From contig NW_024704743.1 in NCBI RefSeq assembly GCF_018977255.1, forward strand, positions 14,076,001 through 14,140,000: a DNA stretch of 64,000 nucleotides. Reading direction: 5' to 3'. Under the pieces are notes generated by a model that saw nothing but the letters and a program-made list of their open reading frames with translations, was not told the DNA's origin and did no database searches. Both the position numbers and the translations under genes were made by a program. Source of the stretch: Callorhinchus milii (taxonomy: Eukaryota). Below are positions 39,930 through 53,715 of the stretch, piece by piece. Numbering within the stretch: the first letter of the stretch is position 1; every line of letters begins with the position of its first letter.

Positions 39930-42124
39930 CCCTCTCCCTCTCCAATGCCCTGAAGTCATCTGAACTCCTACACCTCTGGTTTTCCCAGACTGATCTCCCC
40001 TCCTCACTCTCTTTTCTCCACAACTCCCTCTCCACCATTCTGGACTCCCTCACTTCCCGAACTGCCTCATACTCCCATAAATCCCCGGTACACCAGCCAT
40101 CTCCGTTCTCTCAAGGTACAAATGCGAGCTGCTGAACGGGCCTGGACCAAATCCAAACTTAACTGTCCATTGGCAGATTTGGCTTCACCACACCAAGACC
40201 TACCGATGCACTCTTACCTCCGCCAAATCCTCCTTGGAGGCAAAGGACAACCCCAGGCTTCTCTTTTCTACCACAAACCATCTCCTTCATCCACCTTCCC
40301 ATACCTCGCCCATCCTCTCCTCAAACTCCAACTGAGGAGATGCTGGACTTCCTCGAATCTAAAATCGAGGGGATACGTTCAGCCACCTCAGCCCCGTCCA
40401 CAGCCACCCCCACATCACCTCTCCCTCATGATCCACCCCCACCCATCCCCCCCTATACTCCTTCGACCCTATCTCTCCCTCCTCCCTCACAACTGTCTGC
40501 AAACTCAAACCCACCACCTGCTGCCTCGATCCCATCCCCTCCTCATCTCCCAGCTCCACCTTCTGGACCCCTCCTATCCGACGTCATCAACCTCTCCTTG
40601 TCCACCGGTTCAGATCCCACCCCCCTAAAAACAGCCGTCATCACCCCCATCCCGAAAAAACCTTCCCTGGACCTATCCCTTCTCTCCAGCTACCGCCCCA
40701 TCTCTAACCTCCCATTCCTCTCCAAGGTCCTGGAACAAGTCGTCGCGTCCCAGCTCTGCTCCTTTCTCTCTCGCCATTCCCTCTTTGAACCCCTCCAATC
40801 CGGCTTCCACGCTGCCCACAGCACGGAAACAGCCCTGGTCAAAGTCACTAATGACATTCTGAACATCTGTGATCAGGATTCCCTCTGCCTCCTTGTCCTC
40901 CTCGACCTCTCTGCCGTCTTCGACACTGTTGACCACTCCATCTCATACACCCCCTCGCCTCACTCAATCTTCACGGACCTGCCCTTGCCTGGTTCGATTC
41001 CTATCTCTCTCACCTTCTCCACTGTGTTGCCTCTAATGTTTCTCCTCCAGCCCCCACACTGTCACATCTGGCATCCCCCGGGGCTATGCCCTCTCCTCTT
41101 TAATATCTACATGCTCCCCCATGGTGACATCATCCGCAGACATGGGGTCAACTTACATATGTATGCGGATGACACCCAACTCTATCGTTCTGCCTCCACC
41201 CTCAACTCCAGGGCCACTGCTGTCCTGACAGACTGCCTCTCAGACATCAAGTCCTGGATGAGGGCAAACTTCCTACAGCTGAATGTGAACAAGACTGAGG
41301 CCCTCCTGATTGGCTCACACCAGCGCCTCAGCACCTCAGGCTCTGGCAGCATCAACCTCCATGGTTGCACACTTCAACTCACTAAGCCATCAGGAACCTG
41401 GGTGTCTTGTTCGACCCGCAACTGTCTTTTCTTCCCCACATCCAAGCCATGACCCGCTCTGCCTTCCCTCACCTCCATAACATCGCCCGATTCCGCCACT
41501 ACCTCACCCCTCAGGCCACTGAAACTCTTGTTCATGCCTTCATCACCTCCAGGCTCGACTATGCAAACGTCCTGCTTGTCGGTCTTCCCAACTCCTCCCT
41601 CCACAGGCTGCAGATAATCCAGAACTCTGCAGCCCGTGTCCTCTCCCGCACCAAACTCCGTGACCCCATTTCCCCCATTCTCGCCCGACTCCATTGGCTC
41701 CCTATCCTTCAGAGGATCCAGTTCAAAATCCTGGTCCTCACCTACAAAGCCCTCCATGGCCTCACCCCACCCTATCTCTGTGACCTCCTAACCCCTTATC
41801 AACCCGCCGGTTCCCTCAGCTCAGCCGGCTCTGGCCTGCTCCACGTCCCCCGCCCCACCCGCCCCACCATTGGCGGGAGACCCTTCAGCCACTCTGCCCT
41901 CAACCTCTGGAACTCCATCCCCCAATCACTCTGCCTCACACTCTCCTTAGCCTCCTTCAAGTCCTGCCTCAAAACCCTCCTCTTCGACCATGGTCACCCC
42001 CCTTTCCCTCCTCTCCCTTCTCCCCCGATCCCAGCTTGGGTCTGAAATGCTGTACACTGTCCAGCGCCTTGGGACGTCCTCCCGACGTGAAAGGCGCTAT
42101 ACAAATGTAATCTTGTTGTTGTTG
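39930..42124 (+). mobile_element. Long L2-clade LINE copy with frameshifted reverse transcriptase
   Basis: ORFs 40340-41452 and 41407-42045: YRPISNLPFLSKVLE, LQSGF, HSTETAL, LDLSAVFD, HMYADD, SRLDY, LHWLP; intact 3' stem-loop + (TTG)n. Confidence 0.95.
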
Positions 42125-42644: not shown

Positions 42645-43120
42645 CAAAACTTGCATTTATATAGTGCCCTTCACACTGTACGGCATCTTAGAGCAGTTAA
42701 CAGTGGCAGAGCCGATGCCGAGCCAGGGGGAGGGGGAAGGTGACCATAGGCACGGTCGAAGAGGAAGGTGAACTGAAAAGGGAGAGAGAGGGGACAAGGC
42801 AAAGGGTTTGAGGGAGAGAGTTCCACAGCTTCGGGGTATTCAGATCTCTCCAGCACCAAGCTCTGGGAGTGGCTGAAAGTAAGGCTGCCGATGTTGGGGC
42901 AGAGGGTCCAGGGGACTGGCTGGAGCCAGTTGAACGGAGGCAGCGGGTAGTGGTGTAGGGCGAGAGTGTAGTTTGGGGAGACACGGGGATGCCAGGACGT
43001 GAAGGGATTTAAAAACAAGAGTGAGGGTCTTGAAATTGATCCGTTCTTTGACAAGGAGCCAATGGAGTTTGACAAAGACTGGGGTAATGGAGGTGCGGAG
43101 TTTAGTGCGGGTGAAAATGC
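42645..43120 (-). mobile_element. L2-clade LINE 3' fragment
   Basis: ITPVFVKLHWLLVKERINFKTL. Confidence 0.8.
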
Positions 43121-45347: not shown

Positions 45348-45496
45348 CTGTGTGAGACTGGGTGTTGATTTCGTCTTGTAATGCCAGCACACTGGTGAGG
45401 TTAATAATCCGGCGTTTGGGGAGCTGAGCAGCTGCCGTTTCACTGCTGGAGTTGTCTACCTTCATCTCCACTTCTGAATCTGCTCTTGCCCTCTTC
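45348..45496 (-). CDS. MLH1: MLH1 exon 13 [11 protein letters not shown]...[19 protein letters not shown]
   Basis: tag/gtacag; 149 nt; basic NLS-like RKRAR across the exon 12/13 junction. Confidence 0.96.
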
Positions 45497-45971
45497 CTAC
45501 CAAAAAAAATGTTTTGAATGAATGCCAATTTATTCCAATAATTATAATGAAAATAATCCTTGCATTTGATTTAATGCCTTCTCACATCTTTGAGACGTCT
45601 TAGAGTGCTTCACTGTAAGGTGGATTGACTGTGCATTCTGTTTTAAGATCCATTGTACTCATCCTCCAACTCTCCTCTCCCCGAATATCCTGGTTACTTT
45701 TAGGAGAACCATCCAGTTGGAAAGCAGAGATTCTTAACCTGGAACCAGCTCCCATCATATCACCAGCAGCTCCCGTCTCTAACTCATTCAAAGATGATAT
45801 TGTGGACAGATCTAGTGGAGAGCTGCGGTGTGAGTGGGGCAGGGCAGAAAATAGCTCCTTGGCCTGAACCGGCAAATGACAATTGACAGCTGGTTTCAGG
45901 GACATGGACTGTTCATTGAAAGTGGGAGAACCTCTTAACCTGACACATAGCTCAAGGTGACGATCTCTAAA

Positions 45972-46710
45972 TAACAACTTACACTTATACATCATCCCTC
46001 ACATAGTCTTGGGAGAGCATTACAATAACAGGGCGGACACCAGGTTGGGGCAGGGGAGGAGGGGTGGACCGTAGGCACCGTCAAAGAGGTAGGTTTTAAC
46101 CTCGTTGAGCTCTCAGTCTCTAGTGAGTTTGCTGGAGTTGGTAAGCTAATGTCATTTACCTCCTCCATCTCAAGTCCTGATACCAAACTGCACCAGTGCT
46201 GGTCATGGCCTGCCCAGCCTCTGCTCTGCTCACTGGCTTGAAAACAGATACAGATAGAGATGGGGCGAGGCAGAGGTTTGAGGGAGTTCCAGAGGTTGGG
46301 GTGTAGAATTGGAAAACTTGGCCACAGGTAGTAGAGTGGGGGATGTGTAGCAAGCCGAGTTACCTGATCAGAGGAGCGCGGGAGGAGAAGATCAGAGGAG
46401 CTAGGGCATGAAATAATTTGTAGGTGAGGGTGAGGGCCCTGAAGTTGATCCACTGAAAGACAGGGAGCCAGTGGAGCCTGGCGAGGACTGGGGTGATGGA
46501 CATATGGAGTTTAGTGTTGGTCAGGAGGTGGGTGGAATTTGGGATGAGCTGAAGTTGAAGGATGGTGGATCTAGGGAGACCAGACCAGGAAGTTTGAAAA
46601 TTCCTGCCAGGAGGTGGTTAAAGTGTGGCTAGGGATTTGGATCGGATTTAGCGTGAGGTAGGGACAGAGACGGACAATGTGGCAGAGGTGGAAAAAAGCA
46701 GTCTTGATCA
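45972..46710 (-). mobile_element. L2-clade LINE fragment carrying an MLH1 exon-12 copy
   Basis: L2 3' features (CTCTGGAACTCCCTC, AAAACCTACCTCTTTGAC, tail) interrupted by 46104-46238. Confidence 0.8.
46104..46238 (-). pseudogene. Partial duplicate of MLH1 exon 12 in intron 12
   Basis: 120/136 identical to 46951-47086 by hand alignment, with one 1-nt deletion. Confidence 0.92.
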
Positions 46711-46890
46711 GAGACTGACCAGAGAAATAACAGACGTATCCACAGCACACCACTTAGTACTGCACAGTCGAATTACTGTAAATTCCAACGCCACTCTTAA
46801 AACACCTCTGCAGCCATAAGTCCCTGCAAAAAATGTCCAAGGGTTTTATTGCAAGTGCAAATCACATTCACTTTGATAGTTAGCATTTAC

Positions 46891-47231
46891 CTGGACAATG
46901 AATTAGTTGAGGCTTTGCTGCATGACTGTATAGGGTCCTCCTCAAACTTTGTTGAGCTCTCAGTCTCTAGAGAATTTGCTGGAGCTGGTAAGGCAGTGTC
47001 ATTTACCTCCTCCATCTCACAGTCCTGACCCCAAGCCACACCAGTGCTGTTCGTGGCCTGCCCAGCCTGTGCTCTGCACACTGGCTGAAGGAAGGCATCC
47101 AGCTTCTGCTCCCTGGAATCTGTCCGCACCATCTGGTGAGCGTATAGCTTGTCACCAGAGTCTTGAGCTGCTGATGCCGTTGAAGGTTTGACAATTTCAT
47201 CCGAGGCTATGGAAGAGCCTGGCAGCAGTGT
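46891..47231 (-). CDS. MLH1: MLH1 exon 12 (linker) TLLPG...[21 protein letters not shown]...NSLS
   Basis: tag/gtaaat; 341 nt phase 0-2; conserved linker motif [14 protein letters not shown]. Confidence 0.95.
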
Positions 47232-48910: not shown

Positions 48911-49782
48911 CTGTAGAGGAAACAAATGATAATGAAAGGTGAAATGTAGGTTCCCTCTAATGCTCTCCCTCCTCTGTTGAAGCCATGCCATTGACTTGTA
49001 TTGAGTTACAGTTCCATACCTAATGAATTTGCTTTACCACCTCATCCAAGCAATCACTCATTACATTTAAGGAATGAGGTCAGCAATGACTCAAGCATAA
49101 GGGCATCACAGCCAAGTGTGATCCTGCACTCACATCATCCCAGCTGCCAGTAGAGATGACTGGGAAACAAGTGGGAACGGAATCACAGGCTGATTTCTCT
49201 CCCAACTCCAGGAATACGGAGGACTTAGAACAATGGTGTCCAACGTTTATCGGCCAAGAAAGTAAATGTTCTTGATTGAATATTTCTTGATTTATGCCAT
49301 GAATCAAGAAATAACCAATCAAGAAATAAAACTGAAAACACATTACTGATTTGACACAGACGTACCTAGACTCTTGCGAATGTTCGGGGGGGGGGGGTGG
49401 GGACTTTTTGACGGCCTGCTGACCATTTCCAGCCCGTGGCTACAACACTGCCATAGACTCTTGCAATCATCTGCTCGCACCAAATAATTCATACAGAGAC
49501 CTAACACTTGACTACCATTTAACAGTAGAAATTTAGTGTTGGGGAAATCACAATCTCAACTGAGTTAGGAGGGGAGAAACTAGGTGGTGGTGGCAAGAGA
49601 GAAGGGGAAATGTTCCAAGGTTACTCCATTATTTCACCTTGACGTGTGTGCCATGGGGGGTAGGGGGGAGTGAGGGGGACAGGAAAGGGGGATGTGCTAA
49701 AAAAAGATTTTTTTAAAAAAAGGCTAAGCAATTTTATTTTAAAAGATTTCCACCTCAATTTATAATTTAGAACTCATCATAC

Positions 49783-51266: not shown

Positions 51267-52178
51267 TGTTAGAATATACACTTTTTGTATATTGCTAGAA
51301 TCATAATAGATGTTGTGAATGGGTTAACTTTTAAGTTAAGTGTGGGAGACAACTGGACTGACAGTCATGGGATAGGACACATCTGGTTTTCTCTGTTTTT
51401 GAAAGAATAACAGACAGGGGCAGGGGATCTCGACTGAGTAATAAGTCGCTAGATTCTGACAGGGCCAACCGACAGAAGGCAACCCTCAAGAATAGAAACT
51501 AATGAGCAAGTTGCTTAAACTAGAGGACCTTGGTACCATCCCGGGATCCTGATAAGAAATAACCAGTCACTTAAAAGGAATATACTAATGATCCCACACT
51601 ACAAAATAATGAGCACCAGATACAGCTCTAAACTGATCAATCCTCTATCTTAGACAATTAGATCAGATAACAGGGGTCTTAAGGACAATGTGTATGTGCG
51701 CTGAGGCACGTACACCCCATGAGGTGCTCACGTGAACCCAGCATGATTTTGACAGGTGATCTAAGGTCCGCACCATGATTGGACGAACATCGGTATAAGA
51801 GTTCCCATAACTTTGTGTACGGGGCCGTCCCGGGTCGCGGAGACAAGGGTACGGGAGATGGGGCCATCCCGGGTCGCGGAGACAAGGGTACGGGAGATGG
51901 AAGACTGAGAGCTAGAAACACTAAGACTGAGGATATCAGATGGAAGATTGAAAGCTGTAAGCAAGAAGACTGAAAGCATGAAGAATCAAACTTGTGTGTT
52001 GTAAAGACACAGTGTTGCACTCGAGATATCTACTGTGGTATTATTCTGTTATAAGATCTGTTGATTGTACCGGCCTTTGGTCTGACCCATCGGGATATTG
52101 GGGAATAACGAACGAATAATAATTAAACAGTCAGATATCTGGTTGCAAACGGATTATGGCTGATTTTATTTTCCAACA
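51267..52178 (+). mobile_element. Solo LTR (ERV1- or Gypsy-like), 912 bp
   Basis: TGTTAGAA...TTCCAACA termini, ACAT TSD, GATTGG 51777, TATAA 51794, ATTAAA 52122, 39-bp tandem duplication 51821-51898. Confidence 0.85.
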
Positions 52179-52361: not shown

Positions 52362-53715
52362 ATAGCTTCACAACCCCCACCTCCCCAGCCCAGGTCACTG
52401 GGCTATTTGTAATACTTCAAGCTACTGACCTGGCTGAGATCAAGTAAAGGACCAAGCTGGTTATAATTTGAGGCTGTATGATTTAGTTTTACATTAAAGA
52501 TGCGTTTTAAAAAATACAGCACAGGATGTATTAATGTGGAATTTTCACGTCTACCTATCTCGCCGCATAATGGTCCGTCCGGTAACAACAACTTGTATTT
52601 ACTGTATATAGCTCAGTTCACCTGGGGTAGCATCTTGGAGCTTAGTGCAAGCACTACTTGCTAAATACAAACTCCCAGGTTGAAGTTCTTTGTCCTGCAA
52701 AAATGTACAGGGCATTTAACATTAAATTCGGATCTGATCTGGACGTGTAGATCAAGTTATAAATAAACACTTGAACTCTTGAATTAGCCGTCTTGAAAAA
52801 TAACGGGTTCCCCTCAATTTCCTCTTTCGGAAAGATATCAAAAGATATAAGAAAGATATAGATAAACAAATAAAGAGCAGGAGACAAATTATAATAACAA
52901 TCCTTGCAAGTTATATAGTGCCTGTTTACTTGGGACATTCCTGTTATCCTACCTACCTGCTCATAACCTCTACAATTTTAGCATATTCCTCACTGGGATT
53001 CTTCAGAGCTTTCCTTCGTGTGTTAATGTTGTAGAAGAGATCCTCCACCTGCAAACACAAAGCAGCATTTTGTGCCTCTGAGCGTTGTGAAGATGAGGAA
53101 CTTTCTACCCCGGAAAGAACAGACACGGAATCAATAGGGATGTTTAAAAGATAATTAAACAAGTTGAGCGGTAGAACTATTAAGGGGTAGAGTGAGATGG
53201 TGGGGCACTAGGATTAAAAGATCTGCCAAGATCTAATAGAACAGTAGAAAAGGCTCGATATGCAGGATGGGCTAAAGATCCCATGTCACTATTCTAAAAG
53301 AGAAGGGAGTTTCTCTCTCCCAGTTCCTGGCCAACAAGCCCCAAAATAAAATTAGGCACTCACTCCATGGCTATTTTTGGGACACCATTGTGTGCAATTG
53401 GCTGCCGTGTTTCGCCTACAAAATACAGTCAATCCACTTTACAATATATCCTATGAAACGCTTTGAGACGACTCAATTACGTGACAAGGAACTATATCAA
53501 CTGCAAGGATTATTATTATTAAGGATCTGTTATTTCAGGCTGTGACACCACAGTCTGCTGTGTTTTTTGAAACGCATCTTTAATGTAAAACTAGATCATT
53601 CAGCCTCAAATTATAACCAGGTTGGTCCTTTACTTGATCTCAGCCAGGTCAGTAGTTTGAAGTATTACAAATAGCCCAGTGACCTAGGCTGGGGAGGCAG
53701 GGGTTGTGAAGCTAT
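52362..53715. repeat. 160-bp inverted repeat pair (52362-52521 / 53556-53715) flanking MLH1 exon 6
   Basis: 151/160 identical, ungapped, by hand reverse-complement alignment. Confidence 0.95.
52957..53048 (-). CDS. MLH1: MLH1 exon 6 [30 protein letters not shown]
   Basis: cag/gtaggt; 92 nt. Confidence 0.97.

What the first reader, a model, noticed from the sequence alone, without database searches (positions are those of the whole stretch)
46101..46238. Copy of MLH1 exon 12 embedded in an intronic LINE: candidate poison exon
About 135 nt of exon 12 (46951-47086) is duplicated about 650 nt downstream of its donor, in the same orientation (120/136 identical, one 1-nt deletion). It sits inside an L2 3' end at a TTCA(A)GCC microhomology. 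The junction creates a pyrimidine-rich acceptor (CCCCATCTCTATCTGTATCTGTTTTCAAG/CCAGTG), and a weak donor GAG/gttaaa follows. This defines a 136-nt pseudo-exon (46236-46101). Spliced after exon 12 (phase 2) it reads AGC CAG TGA, an immediate stop, so inclusion would route MLH1 mRNA to NMD. It also records a templated-insertion or template-switch event.
Basis: partly seen in the sequence, partly recalled or inferred. Interest (0 to 1): 0.72.

Follow-up and report, generated by a model that had tools for sequence, protein, structure and literature searches.

The report
Decaying exon copy in MLH1 intron
A 141-base piece of a coding exon of the elephant shark's DNA-repair gene MLH1 was long ago copied into an old jumping-gene remnant in the next intron; it looks like an ordinary, decaying DNA-repair scar, and the transcripts examined skip it.

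Summary
The copy is real: 46238-46098 matches exon 12 (47086-46945) of Callorhinchus milii MLH1 at 124/142 columns (E 2e-45) and is bridged by contigs of 2 of 2 DNA runs laid. It replaces about 7 nt of a LINE 3' end, with no target duplication or poly(A). Four sister LINE copies show long microhomeology to the exon at the entry point, which fits a local microhomology-primed templated insertion made after the LINE landed. It decays neutrally (4 of 17 changes synonymous, 1 frameshift). The poison-exon reading is unsupported: the acceptor is ordinary LINE sequence, not made by the junction; 29 equal or better splice-site pairs lie in MLH1's introns; both RNA-like runs laid (one study) join exon 12 straight to exon 13 and no contig covers the copy's interior. 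Contigs drop rare isoforms and NMD was not blocked, so trace inclusion stays open. The scan has noted several similar exon-piece copies in this genome and others. Ordinary; low interest.

The parts
46891..47231 (-). MLH1 exon 12 (341 nt, phase 0 to phase 2), end of the N-terminal part and start of the linker
   Evidence: spliced at both ends in contigs of 2 of 2 RNA-like runs
46945..47086 (-). Template: internal part of exon 12 that was copied (linker codons)
   Evidence: homologous linker residues exist in sharks, coelacanth, ray-finned fish and amniotes, so the exon is the source
46098..46238 (-). The copy, 141 nt, 124/142 identical, 1-nt deletion, 4 of 17 substitutions synonymous
   Evidence: bridged by contigs of DNA runs X11 and X14
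46239..46715 (-). Host LINE fragment (ORF2 C-terminus), 5' of the insert; supplies the pyrimidine tract and the AG
46053..46097 (-). Host LINE tail, resuming in register behind the insert
46101..46236 (-).
46160..46236 (-). Alternative 77-nt pseudo-exon ending at the exon-derived donor GAG|GTAAAT (rank 1/1425; same 9-mer as the real exon 10 donor); same stop; not seen in RNA
46101..46232 (-). Alternative 132-nt in-frame, stop-free pseudo-exon from a CAG acceptor 4 nt downstream (rank 223/1660); not seen in RNA
45348..45496 (-). MLH1 exon 13, joined directly to exon 12 in the RNA contigs

Best explanation
A neutral scar of microhomology-primed templated insertion. A break or stalled fork inside an already resident LINE 3' end in intron 12 left a 3' end finishing in a CTTCCTTCAAG-like motif; it annealed to the near-identical motif 850 nt away inside exon 12, was extended for about 140 nt, then returned to the LINE by a 1-2 nt match, losing about 7 nt of LINE. 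The germ-line product spread and has drifted since. It is removed with intron 12 and does nothing measurable to MLH1 mRNA. Shown: the copy, its direction, the small loss, no target duplication, neutral decay, direct exon 12-13 splicing as the main product. Inferred: the enzyme route (polymerase-theta end joining, MMBIR or replication template switching cannot be told apart), the order LINE-then-copy, and absence of trace inclusion.
For: Single local copy, E 2e-45; 1 of 18 mapped MLH1 exons has one. About 7 nt of LINE replaced, no duplication, no poly(A). Anchored homeology of sister-LINE flanks to the exon entry point: scores 10, 8, 6.5 and 6 for 4 of 4 copies tried, reached by 1, 1, 1 and 7 of 2000 sampled local positions, the true site being among those sampled. 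Host LINE differs at 113/343 sites (33%) from a leave-one-out consensus while copy and exon differ by 12%. 4/17 synonymous against 0.23-0.27 expected under neutrality, p=1.0, plus a frameshift. Exon 12-13 joint at depth 63.2 and 42.2 in runs X1 and X2, with zero depth in bin 46110-46190 although intronic contigs of depth 2.9-4 are kept elsewhere in the intron. A second two-copy local duplication (160 nt, inverted, 94%) lies in the same gene. Such events accumulate as germ-line variants in humans (PMC8421209, passages; PMC5110952, parts 1-2 of 4).
Against: The present-day host flank itself shows only weak homeology (score 3.5, reached by 5.8% of positions), so the long match is inferred from sister copies, with the anchor AG chosen by me. 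The LINE consensus mixes subfamilies (copies 24-41% from consensus), which inflates the LINE's age. The copy does carry the best-scoring intronic donor of the gene behind a top-6% acceptor and exon-derived sequence, so it is a better-than-average exonisation substrate. RNA evidence is 2 of 10 RNA-like runs, one study, contigs only, tissue unknown, NMD intact; 25 joints were not shown. The linker is weakly constrained anyway, so the synonymous test has little power.
Confidence: 0.76

Rival explanations
1. Leaky pseudo-exon without a selected role: in a few per cent of transcripts the LINE acceptor (46236) pairs with the exon-derived donor at 46160 (77 nt) or, less likely, 46101 (136 nt); the early stop sends these to NMD. 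Splicing noise, not regulation.
For: Acceptor score 4.07 lies within the range of the gene's real acceptors (leave-one-out 1.1-12.0); donor 46160 is rank 1/1425 and is the same 9-mer as the real exon 10 donor; stop at the second full codon with either donor. Young exons are mostly included below 10% (PMC2592719, passages), a level that contigs can drop.
Against: No contig in bin 46110-46190 in 2 of 2 RNA-like runs, which are joined across it. The same donor 9-mer lies inside exon 12 at 47007 and the RNA contigs read through it. A sister LINE in intron 14 has a better acceptor (6.58 at 42772).
Confidence: 0.17
2. Regulated poison exon: inclusion is tuned to set MLH1 dose, for example in germ cells or in lymphocytes that hypermutate.
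For: Premature stop far upstream of later junctions; the copy has persisted long enough to reach 12% divergence.
Against: No inclusion seen; neutral decay; acceptor is generic LINE sequence; a variant lies in the pyrimidine tract in 1 of 2 DNA runs (46243); 29 equal or better site pairs in the gene's introns for the 136-nt form. Persistence is the norm for neutral intron DNA.
Confidence: 0.03
3. In-frame cassette exon: the CAG acceptor at 46232 with donor 46101 gives 132 nt without a stop; the 1-nt deletion brings the last 24 codons back into the native frame, adding 44 residues to the MLH1 linker.
For: Frame stays open through exons 13 and 14. CAG can out-compete a nearby upstream AAG (recalled, not from a call).
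Against: Such a product would escape NMD and be easier to see, yet no contig holds it; 0 of 8 C. milii database models include it; acceptor score only 1.74; 3 of 8 changes in the native-frame part are synonymous, p=0.34; the stronger donor at 46160 would break the frame.
Confidence: 0.02
4. Different origin, same neutral outcome: RNA-templated. Reverse transcriptase jumped from LINE RNA to MLH1 RNA and back while the LINE was inserting, or an MLH1 cDNA patched a later break.
For: Copy and LINE are both in sense; MLH1 is transcribed; class 2 TSIPs are argued to be RNA-derived and show small deletions and microhomology (PMC5110952).
Against: The template lies 850 nt from the target, which a diffusible RNA would not favour (inference); the LINE looks much older than the copy (33% vs 12%); the copy spans no splice junction, so nothing marks it as mRNA-derived.
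Confidence: 0.15
5. Different origin, same neutral outcome: an 850-nt tandem duplication at the microhomology, later trimmed by a deletion that removed most of the second unit.
For: Direct orientation and the entry-point microhomeology fit a tandem duplication equally.
Against: The deletion would have to end within about 7 nt of the duplication breakpoint; no other remnant of duplicated intron or exon 3' end is found.
Confidence: 0.07
6. Assembly artefact.
For: None.
Against: 17 substitutions and a gap separate the copies; contigs of X11 (45553-46487, with its own variants) and X14 (46000-46476) bridge both junctions.
Confidence: 0.01

Closest known systems
Class 2 templated sequence insertions / polymorphisms (Onozawa and Aplan, PMC5110952; parts 1-2 of 4 read)
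   Same: Intact donor, extra copy of 70-400 nt size class, no target duplication or poly(A), small deletion and microhomology at the junction.
   Different: Donor is 850 nt away in the same gene, not a distant locus; old (12% diverged) and present in all DNA examined rather than shown polymorphic.
Microhomology-mediated templated insertions linked to MMBIR (PMC8421209; passages read) and polymerase-theta end-joining insertions (search listing only)
   Same: Local template, microhomeology at the priming end, return to the original strand, germ-line accumulation when harmless.
   Different: Template lies beyond the 100-bp search distance of that study, the insert is longer, and it is direct rather than inverted as in the yeast signature.
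Poison (NMD-coupled) cassette exons and transposon-derived pseudo-exons (general knowledge; PMC2592719 passages on young exons)
   Same: AG and GT flank a stretch that would bring an early stop; the acceptor comes from a repeat.
   Different: No inclusion, NMD response or conservation shown; the body is a copy of the gene's own exon, not repeat sequence.
Tandem exon duplication giving mutually exclusive exons (search listing only)
   Same: Same-orientation copy of exon sequence in the adjacent intron.
   Different: Only the inside of the exon was copied, without either native splice site; frameshifted; no purifying selection.

Membership tests
Class 1 TSIP (LINE-mediated insertion of cellular RNA) | Target-site duplication of 5 nt or more | tested here: not met
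   About 7 nt of LINE lost, none repeated
Class 1 TSIP (LINE-mediated insertion of cellular RNA) | Poly(A) tract and polyadenylation signal | tested here: not met
   None at either end
Class 2 TSIP / break-repair patch | Donor site intact, extra copy inserted | tested here: met
   Exon 12 intact and spliced
Class 2 TSIP / break-repair patch | Microdeletion and microhomology at the junctions, no duplication or poly(A) | tested here: met
   long match inferred from sister LINE copies, 2 nt exact (5 with one gap) today; 1-2 nt at the exit
Class 2 TSIP / break-repair patch | Template from a distant genomic region | tested here: not met
   Offset 847-848 nt
Class 2 TSIP / break-repair patch | Polymorphic presence/absence | tested here: inconclusive
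   Present in the window and in 2 of 2 DNA runs laid, one study; contigs cannot show a rarer empty allele
MMBIR-type templated insertion (MMB-TI) | Microhomology or microhomeology at the priming junction | tested here: met
MMBIR-type templated insertion (MMB-TI) | Template within about 100 bp, inverted (yeast signature) | tested here: not met
   Direct, 848 nt offset; definition
MMBIR-type templated insertion (MMB-TI) | Dependence on a given polymerase or pathway | not testable with these tools
   Ancient event; only the scar remains
Poison exon | Canonical AG and GT ends | tested here: met
   but 29 pairs as good or better in 24,011 intron bases for the 136-nt form
Poison exon | Premature stop well upstream of later junctions | tested here: met
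   Stop at second full codon for acceptor 46236; exons 13-19 follow. Not met for acceptor 46232 with donor 46101 (open frame)
Poison exon | Actually included in transcripts | tested here: inconclusive
   Not seen in 2 of 2 RNA-like runs laid, which join across it; contigs drop rare forms
Poison exon | Included form rises when NMD is blocked | not testable with these tools
   No such run offered
Poison exon | Conserved or regulated inclusion | not testable with these tools
   No other chimaera genome or protein available
Tandem duplicated (mutually exclusive) exon | Whole exon with its own splice sites, same phase | tested here: not met
   Internal 142 of 341 nt only
Tandem duplicated (mutually exclusive) exon | Purifying selection on the reading frame | tested here: not met
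   4/17 synonymous, 1-nt deletion; low power
LINE chimera by template switch during retrotransposition | Insert and LINE in the same sense | tested here: met
LINE chimera by template switch during retrotransposition | Insert as old as its host LINE | tested here: inconclusive
   33% vs 12% points to a younger insert, but the consensus mixes subfamilies
L2 clade (host element) | Match to an L2 consensus or RT phylogeny | not tested
   Only LINE ORF2 homology shown; clade name recalled

The most novel reading that the evidence does not exclude
A break-repair patch built a working switch in one step: a LINE's ready-made acceptor was placed in front of a piece of the gene's own exon that carries a strong, normally silent internal donor. 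Depending on which of two AGs 4 nt apart and which donor is used, MLH1 would gain a 77-nt poison exon or a 132-nt in-frame exon that lengthens its linker, tuning mismatch-repair dose in the slowest-evolving vertebrate genome.
Probability: 0.04. Interest if true: 0.65.

Novelty: new member of a known kind. Interest (0 to 1): 0.16.

Why it matters
As it stands, little: one more templated-insertion scar, useful as a clean example in which sister repeats reveal the priming microhomeology, and a warning that such direct copies can mislead gene models (one database model jumps from exon 12 to the base right behind the copy). If regulated inclusion were shown, it would be a case of exon birth from a gene's own exon interior plus a LINE acceptor, acting on a mismatch-repair gene in a species reported to have the lowest neutral rate among vertebrates (PMC3964593, passages). 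More useful may be the class: several such local exon-piece copies have been noted in this genome, so a genome-wide count could measure how often local template switching acts in a slow-clock vertebrate.

Tried and rejected
1) No whole genome is held for this window, so the copy's uniqueness is shown only within 64 kb and the LINE subfamily consensus could not be built. 2) Run search: no RNA holder listed as on record; 10 of 14 rows are guessed RNA. 3) Protein search with the 45-residue in-frame reading of the copy found nothing at E<=10, but it also missed the parent MLH1, so the blank is uninformative. 4) Dating: the epaulette-shark rate of 7e-10 per generation (PMC10587355, passages) against a distance of 0.13 gives about 1e8 generations, implausibly old in years; I keep only 'ancient'. 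5) Polarising the 17 changes failed: no other chimaera among the 120 listed of 701 hits, nearest non-Callorhinchus hit about 50% identical over exon 12. 6) MaxEntScan and SpliceAI are not available; I used a matrix from the gene's own 17 donors and 18 acceptors, which is rough and ranks sites resembling the training set high. 7) Reverse direction (repeat piece exonised into exon 12) rejected: the linker residues have counterparts across jawed vertebrates and no sister LINE carries the piece. 8) 'Junction creates the acceptor' rejected. 9) Literature: 'Callorhinchus milii' + 'MLH1' gave 3 papers, none about this by title or abstract start; searches gave no report of this locus in their listings; the library lacks most subscription papers and I read no supplements.

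Full report
Setting. The exon 12 translation is 100% identical to MLH1 of the elephant shark Callorhinchus milii (XP_007902238.1). Eighteen exons (2-19) on the minus strand reproduce that protein from about residue 39 on. Exon 12 is 47231-46891 (341 nt, ends in phase 2), exon 13 is 45496-45348, intron 12 is 1394 nt.

Observation. One extra match to exon 12 exists in the window: 46238-46098 against 47086-46945, 124/142 identical, one 1-nt deletion, E 2.3e-45; the next hit has E 0.22. Of 18 exons, only exon 12 has such a copy; exon 9 has two 35-nt repeat-like hits. Contigs of 2 of 2 DNA-like runs laid bridge both junctions: X11 over 45553-46487 with its own variants, X14 over 46000-46476 without differences (both from one study, and X14 may not be independent of the assembly). 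The copy is real. The exon is the source, since its linker residues have counterparts in other jawed vertebrates and no sister LINE has the piece.

Host and junctions. The flanks are the 3' end of a LINE: the 5' flank encodes a stretch 21/34 identical to the C-terminus of an element in intron 14 whose ORF hits RVT_1 at E 9e-22. 'L2' is my recall, not a tested label. Aligned with seven window copies, the host runs up to TTCAAG, is interrupted by the copy, and resumes at the TTAAAACC-like word; the best-aligned sister has 7 nt between these words, so about 7 nt were replaced, with no duplication and no poly(A). In one search, short-sided joints skipping 46099-46280 in all four runs come most likely from other family members that lack the insert. 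Today the entry junction shares 2 nt exactly with the exon (5 with one gap; score 3.5, reached by 5.8% of local positions). With four sister copies as stand-ins for the ancestral flank, the scores are 10, 8, 6.5 and 6, reached by 1, 1, 1 and 7 of 2000 sampled positions, the true site included in the sample. I chose the anchor AG in each sister, so this is supportive, not a blind test. The exit match is 1-2 nt. The host differs from a leave-one-out consensus at 113/343 sites (33%; all eight copies 24-41%), the copy from the exon by 12% (JC 0.13): the insert looks younger than its host, with the caveat that mixed subfamilies inflate the first figure.

Decay. Of 17 substitutions, 11 are transitions and 4 synonymous in the native frame, against 23-27% expected by chance (p=1.0); in the 24 codons behind the deletion 3 of 8 are synonymous (p=0.34). 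No sign of selection, with low power because the linker itself is variable.

Splice signals. The acceptor is LINE sequence: sister copies lying in sense in MLH1 introns score 6.58, 3.89 and 1.55 at the like AG, against 4.07 here. First, GAG|GTAAAT at 46160 is the top-ranked intronic donor and the same 9-mer as the real exon 10 donor; it defines a 77-nt exon with the same early stop. The same 9-mer lies inside exon 12 at 47007, where RNA contigs read through. Second, a CAG acceptor at 46232 with donor 46101 gives 132 nt, in frame and stop-free through exon 14; with donor 46160 it frameshifts.

RNA. Fourteen runs were listed, ten guessed RNA, none on record as RNA. I laid the two guessed-RNA runs with most intronic words (X1, X2; one study). 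Their main contigs are spliced at GT-AG: exon 11-12 and exon 12-13, depth 63.2 and 42.2, joining across the copy. Low-depth intronic contigs (2.9-4) cover other parts of intron 12, but bin 46110-46190, which both the 77- and the 136-nt exon overlap, has depth 0 in both. None of the 15 joints shown enters the copy; 25 more were not shown. Contigs drop rare forms, tissue is unknown and NMD was intact, so this rules out a major isoform in those samples and not a trace one. None of 8 C. milii database proteins includes the copy; six have odd linkers, apparently prediction artefacts (my inference), and one (P0122) jumps from codon 47018-46947 of exon 12 to 46099-46040, right behind the copy.

Mechanism. 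Most likely (0.76) a local microhomology-primed templated insertion: a 3' end in the LINE annealed to the look-alike motif in exon 12, copied about 140 nt, and returned, losing about 7 nt; neutral since. Which pathway did it cannot be told. On function the rivals are leaky NMD-degraded inclusion (0.17), a regulated poison exon (0.03), an in-frame cassette (0.02) and artefact (0.01). On origin, a separate axis, RNA-templated insertion (0.15) and tandem duplication followed by deletion (0.07) remain open.

Comparison. It works like a class 2 templated sequence insertion (PMC5110952, parts 1-2 of 4 read) but fails the 'distant donor' feature, and like an MMBIR-type templated insertion (PMC8421209, passages) but is direct and beyond 100 bp. 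It fails class 1 (no duplication, no poly(A)) and tandem exon duplication. Poison-exon membership rests on inclusion, which was not seen. Young exons are mostly included below 10% (PMC2592719, passages), so only raw reads can close the question. Searches showed no report of this locus in their listings.

Background rate. The same gene holds a second two-copy local duplication, 160 nt, inverted, 94% identical, on both sides of exon 6. Earlier notes of this scan list similar exon-piece copies in introns of this genome (SEL1L3, PRAG1, SLBP, TEX261, CLNK) and in other genomes; these are unchecked AI notes and I did not test them.

Verdict. Observation confirmed; templated insertion supported; poison exon unsupported. 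New member of a known kind; interest 0.16. Boldest reading not excluded: a switchable poison or in-frame exon born from the gene's own exon interior and a LINE acceptor (probability 0.04, interest 0.65 if true).

Noticed in passing
window 52362-52521 and 53556-53715: 160-nt inverted duplication, 94% identical, only two copies in the window, in introns 6 and 5 on either side of MLH1 exon 6 (92 nt). The predicted pre-mRNA fold pairs the arms over their length and loops exon 6 out; could favour skipping, back-splicing or A-to-I editing. No RNA laid there.
   Followed up: partly
window 47007 (inside exon 12): Internal donor-like site GAG|GTAAAT, the same 9-mer as the real exon 10 donor and scoring close to the real exon 12 donor (10.6 vs 11.4); RNA contigs read through it. 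Use would shift the frame.
   Followed up: partly
window 46947, 46099-46040, 45662-45609, 45558-45493, 46472-46461: Six database models of C. milii MLH1 (P0002, P0003, P0122, P0123, P0124, P0126) end exon 12 early and most borrow intron 12 pieces as linker exons; likely prediction artefacts; P0122 uses the end of the copy as an acceptor.
   Followed up: partly
window 47073, 46243, 45358, 45669: Variants in laid runs: 47073 in exon 12 (X2; by my reading an Arg to Ser change in the linker), 46243 in the pyrimidine tract before the copy (X11; stays a pyrimidine), 45358 in exon 13 (X2, X11), 7-nt insertion behind 45669 (X11).
   Followed up: no
window 40163-42045 (+ strand): LINE with a long reverse-transcriptase ORF remnant (RVT_1, E 9e-22), antisense in MLH1 intron 14.
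   Followed up: partly
window 51821-51898; 49269-49325: Two-copy 39-nt tandem repeat (97%) in intron 6; 28-nt near-perfect palindrome with 1-nt loop in intron 8.
   Followed up: no
window 46364 and 46823, 46714: Intron 12 holds other high-scoring unused sites: donor CAG|GTAACT at 46364 (8.3) and acceptors at 46823 (8.9) and 46714 (8.2), both acceptors above the copy's.
   Followed up: no
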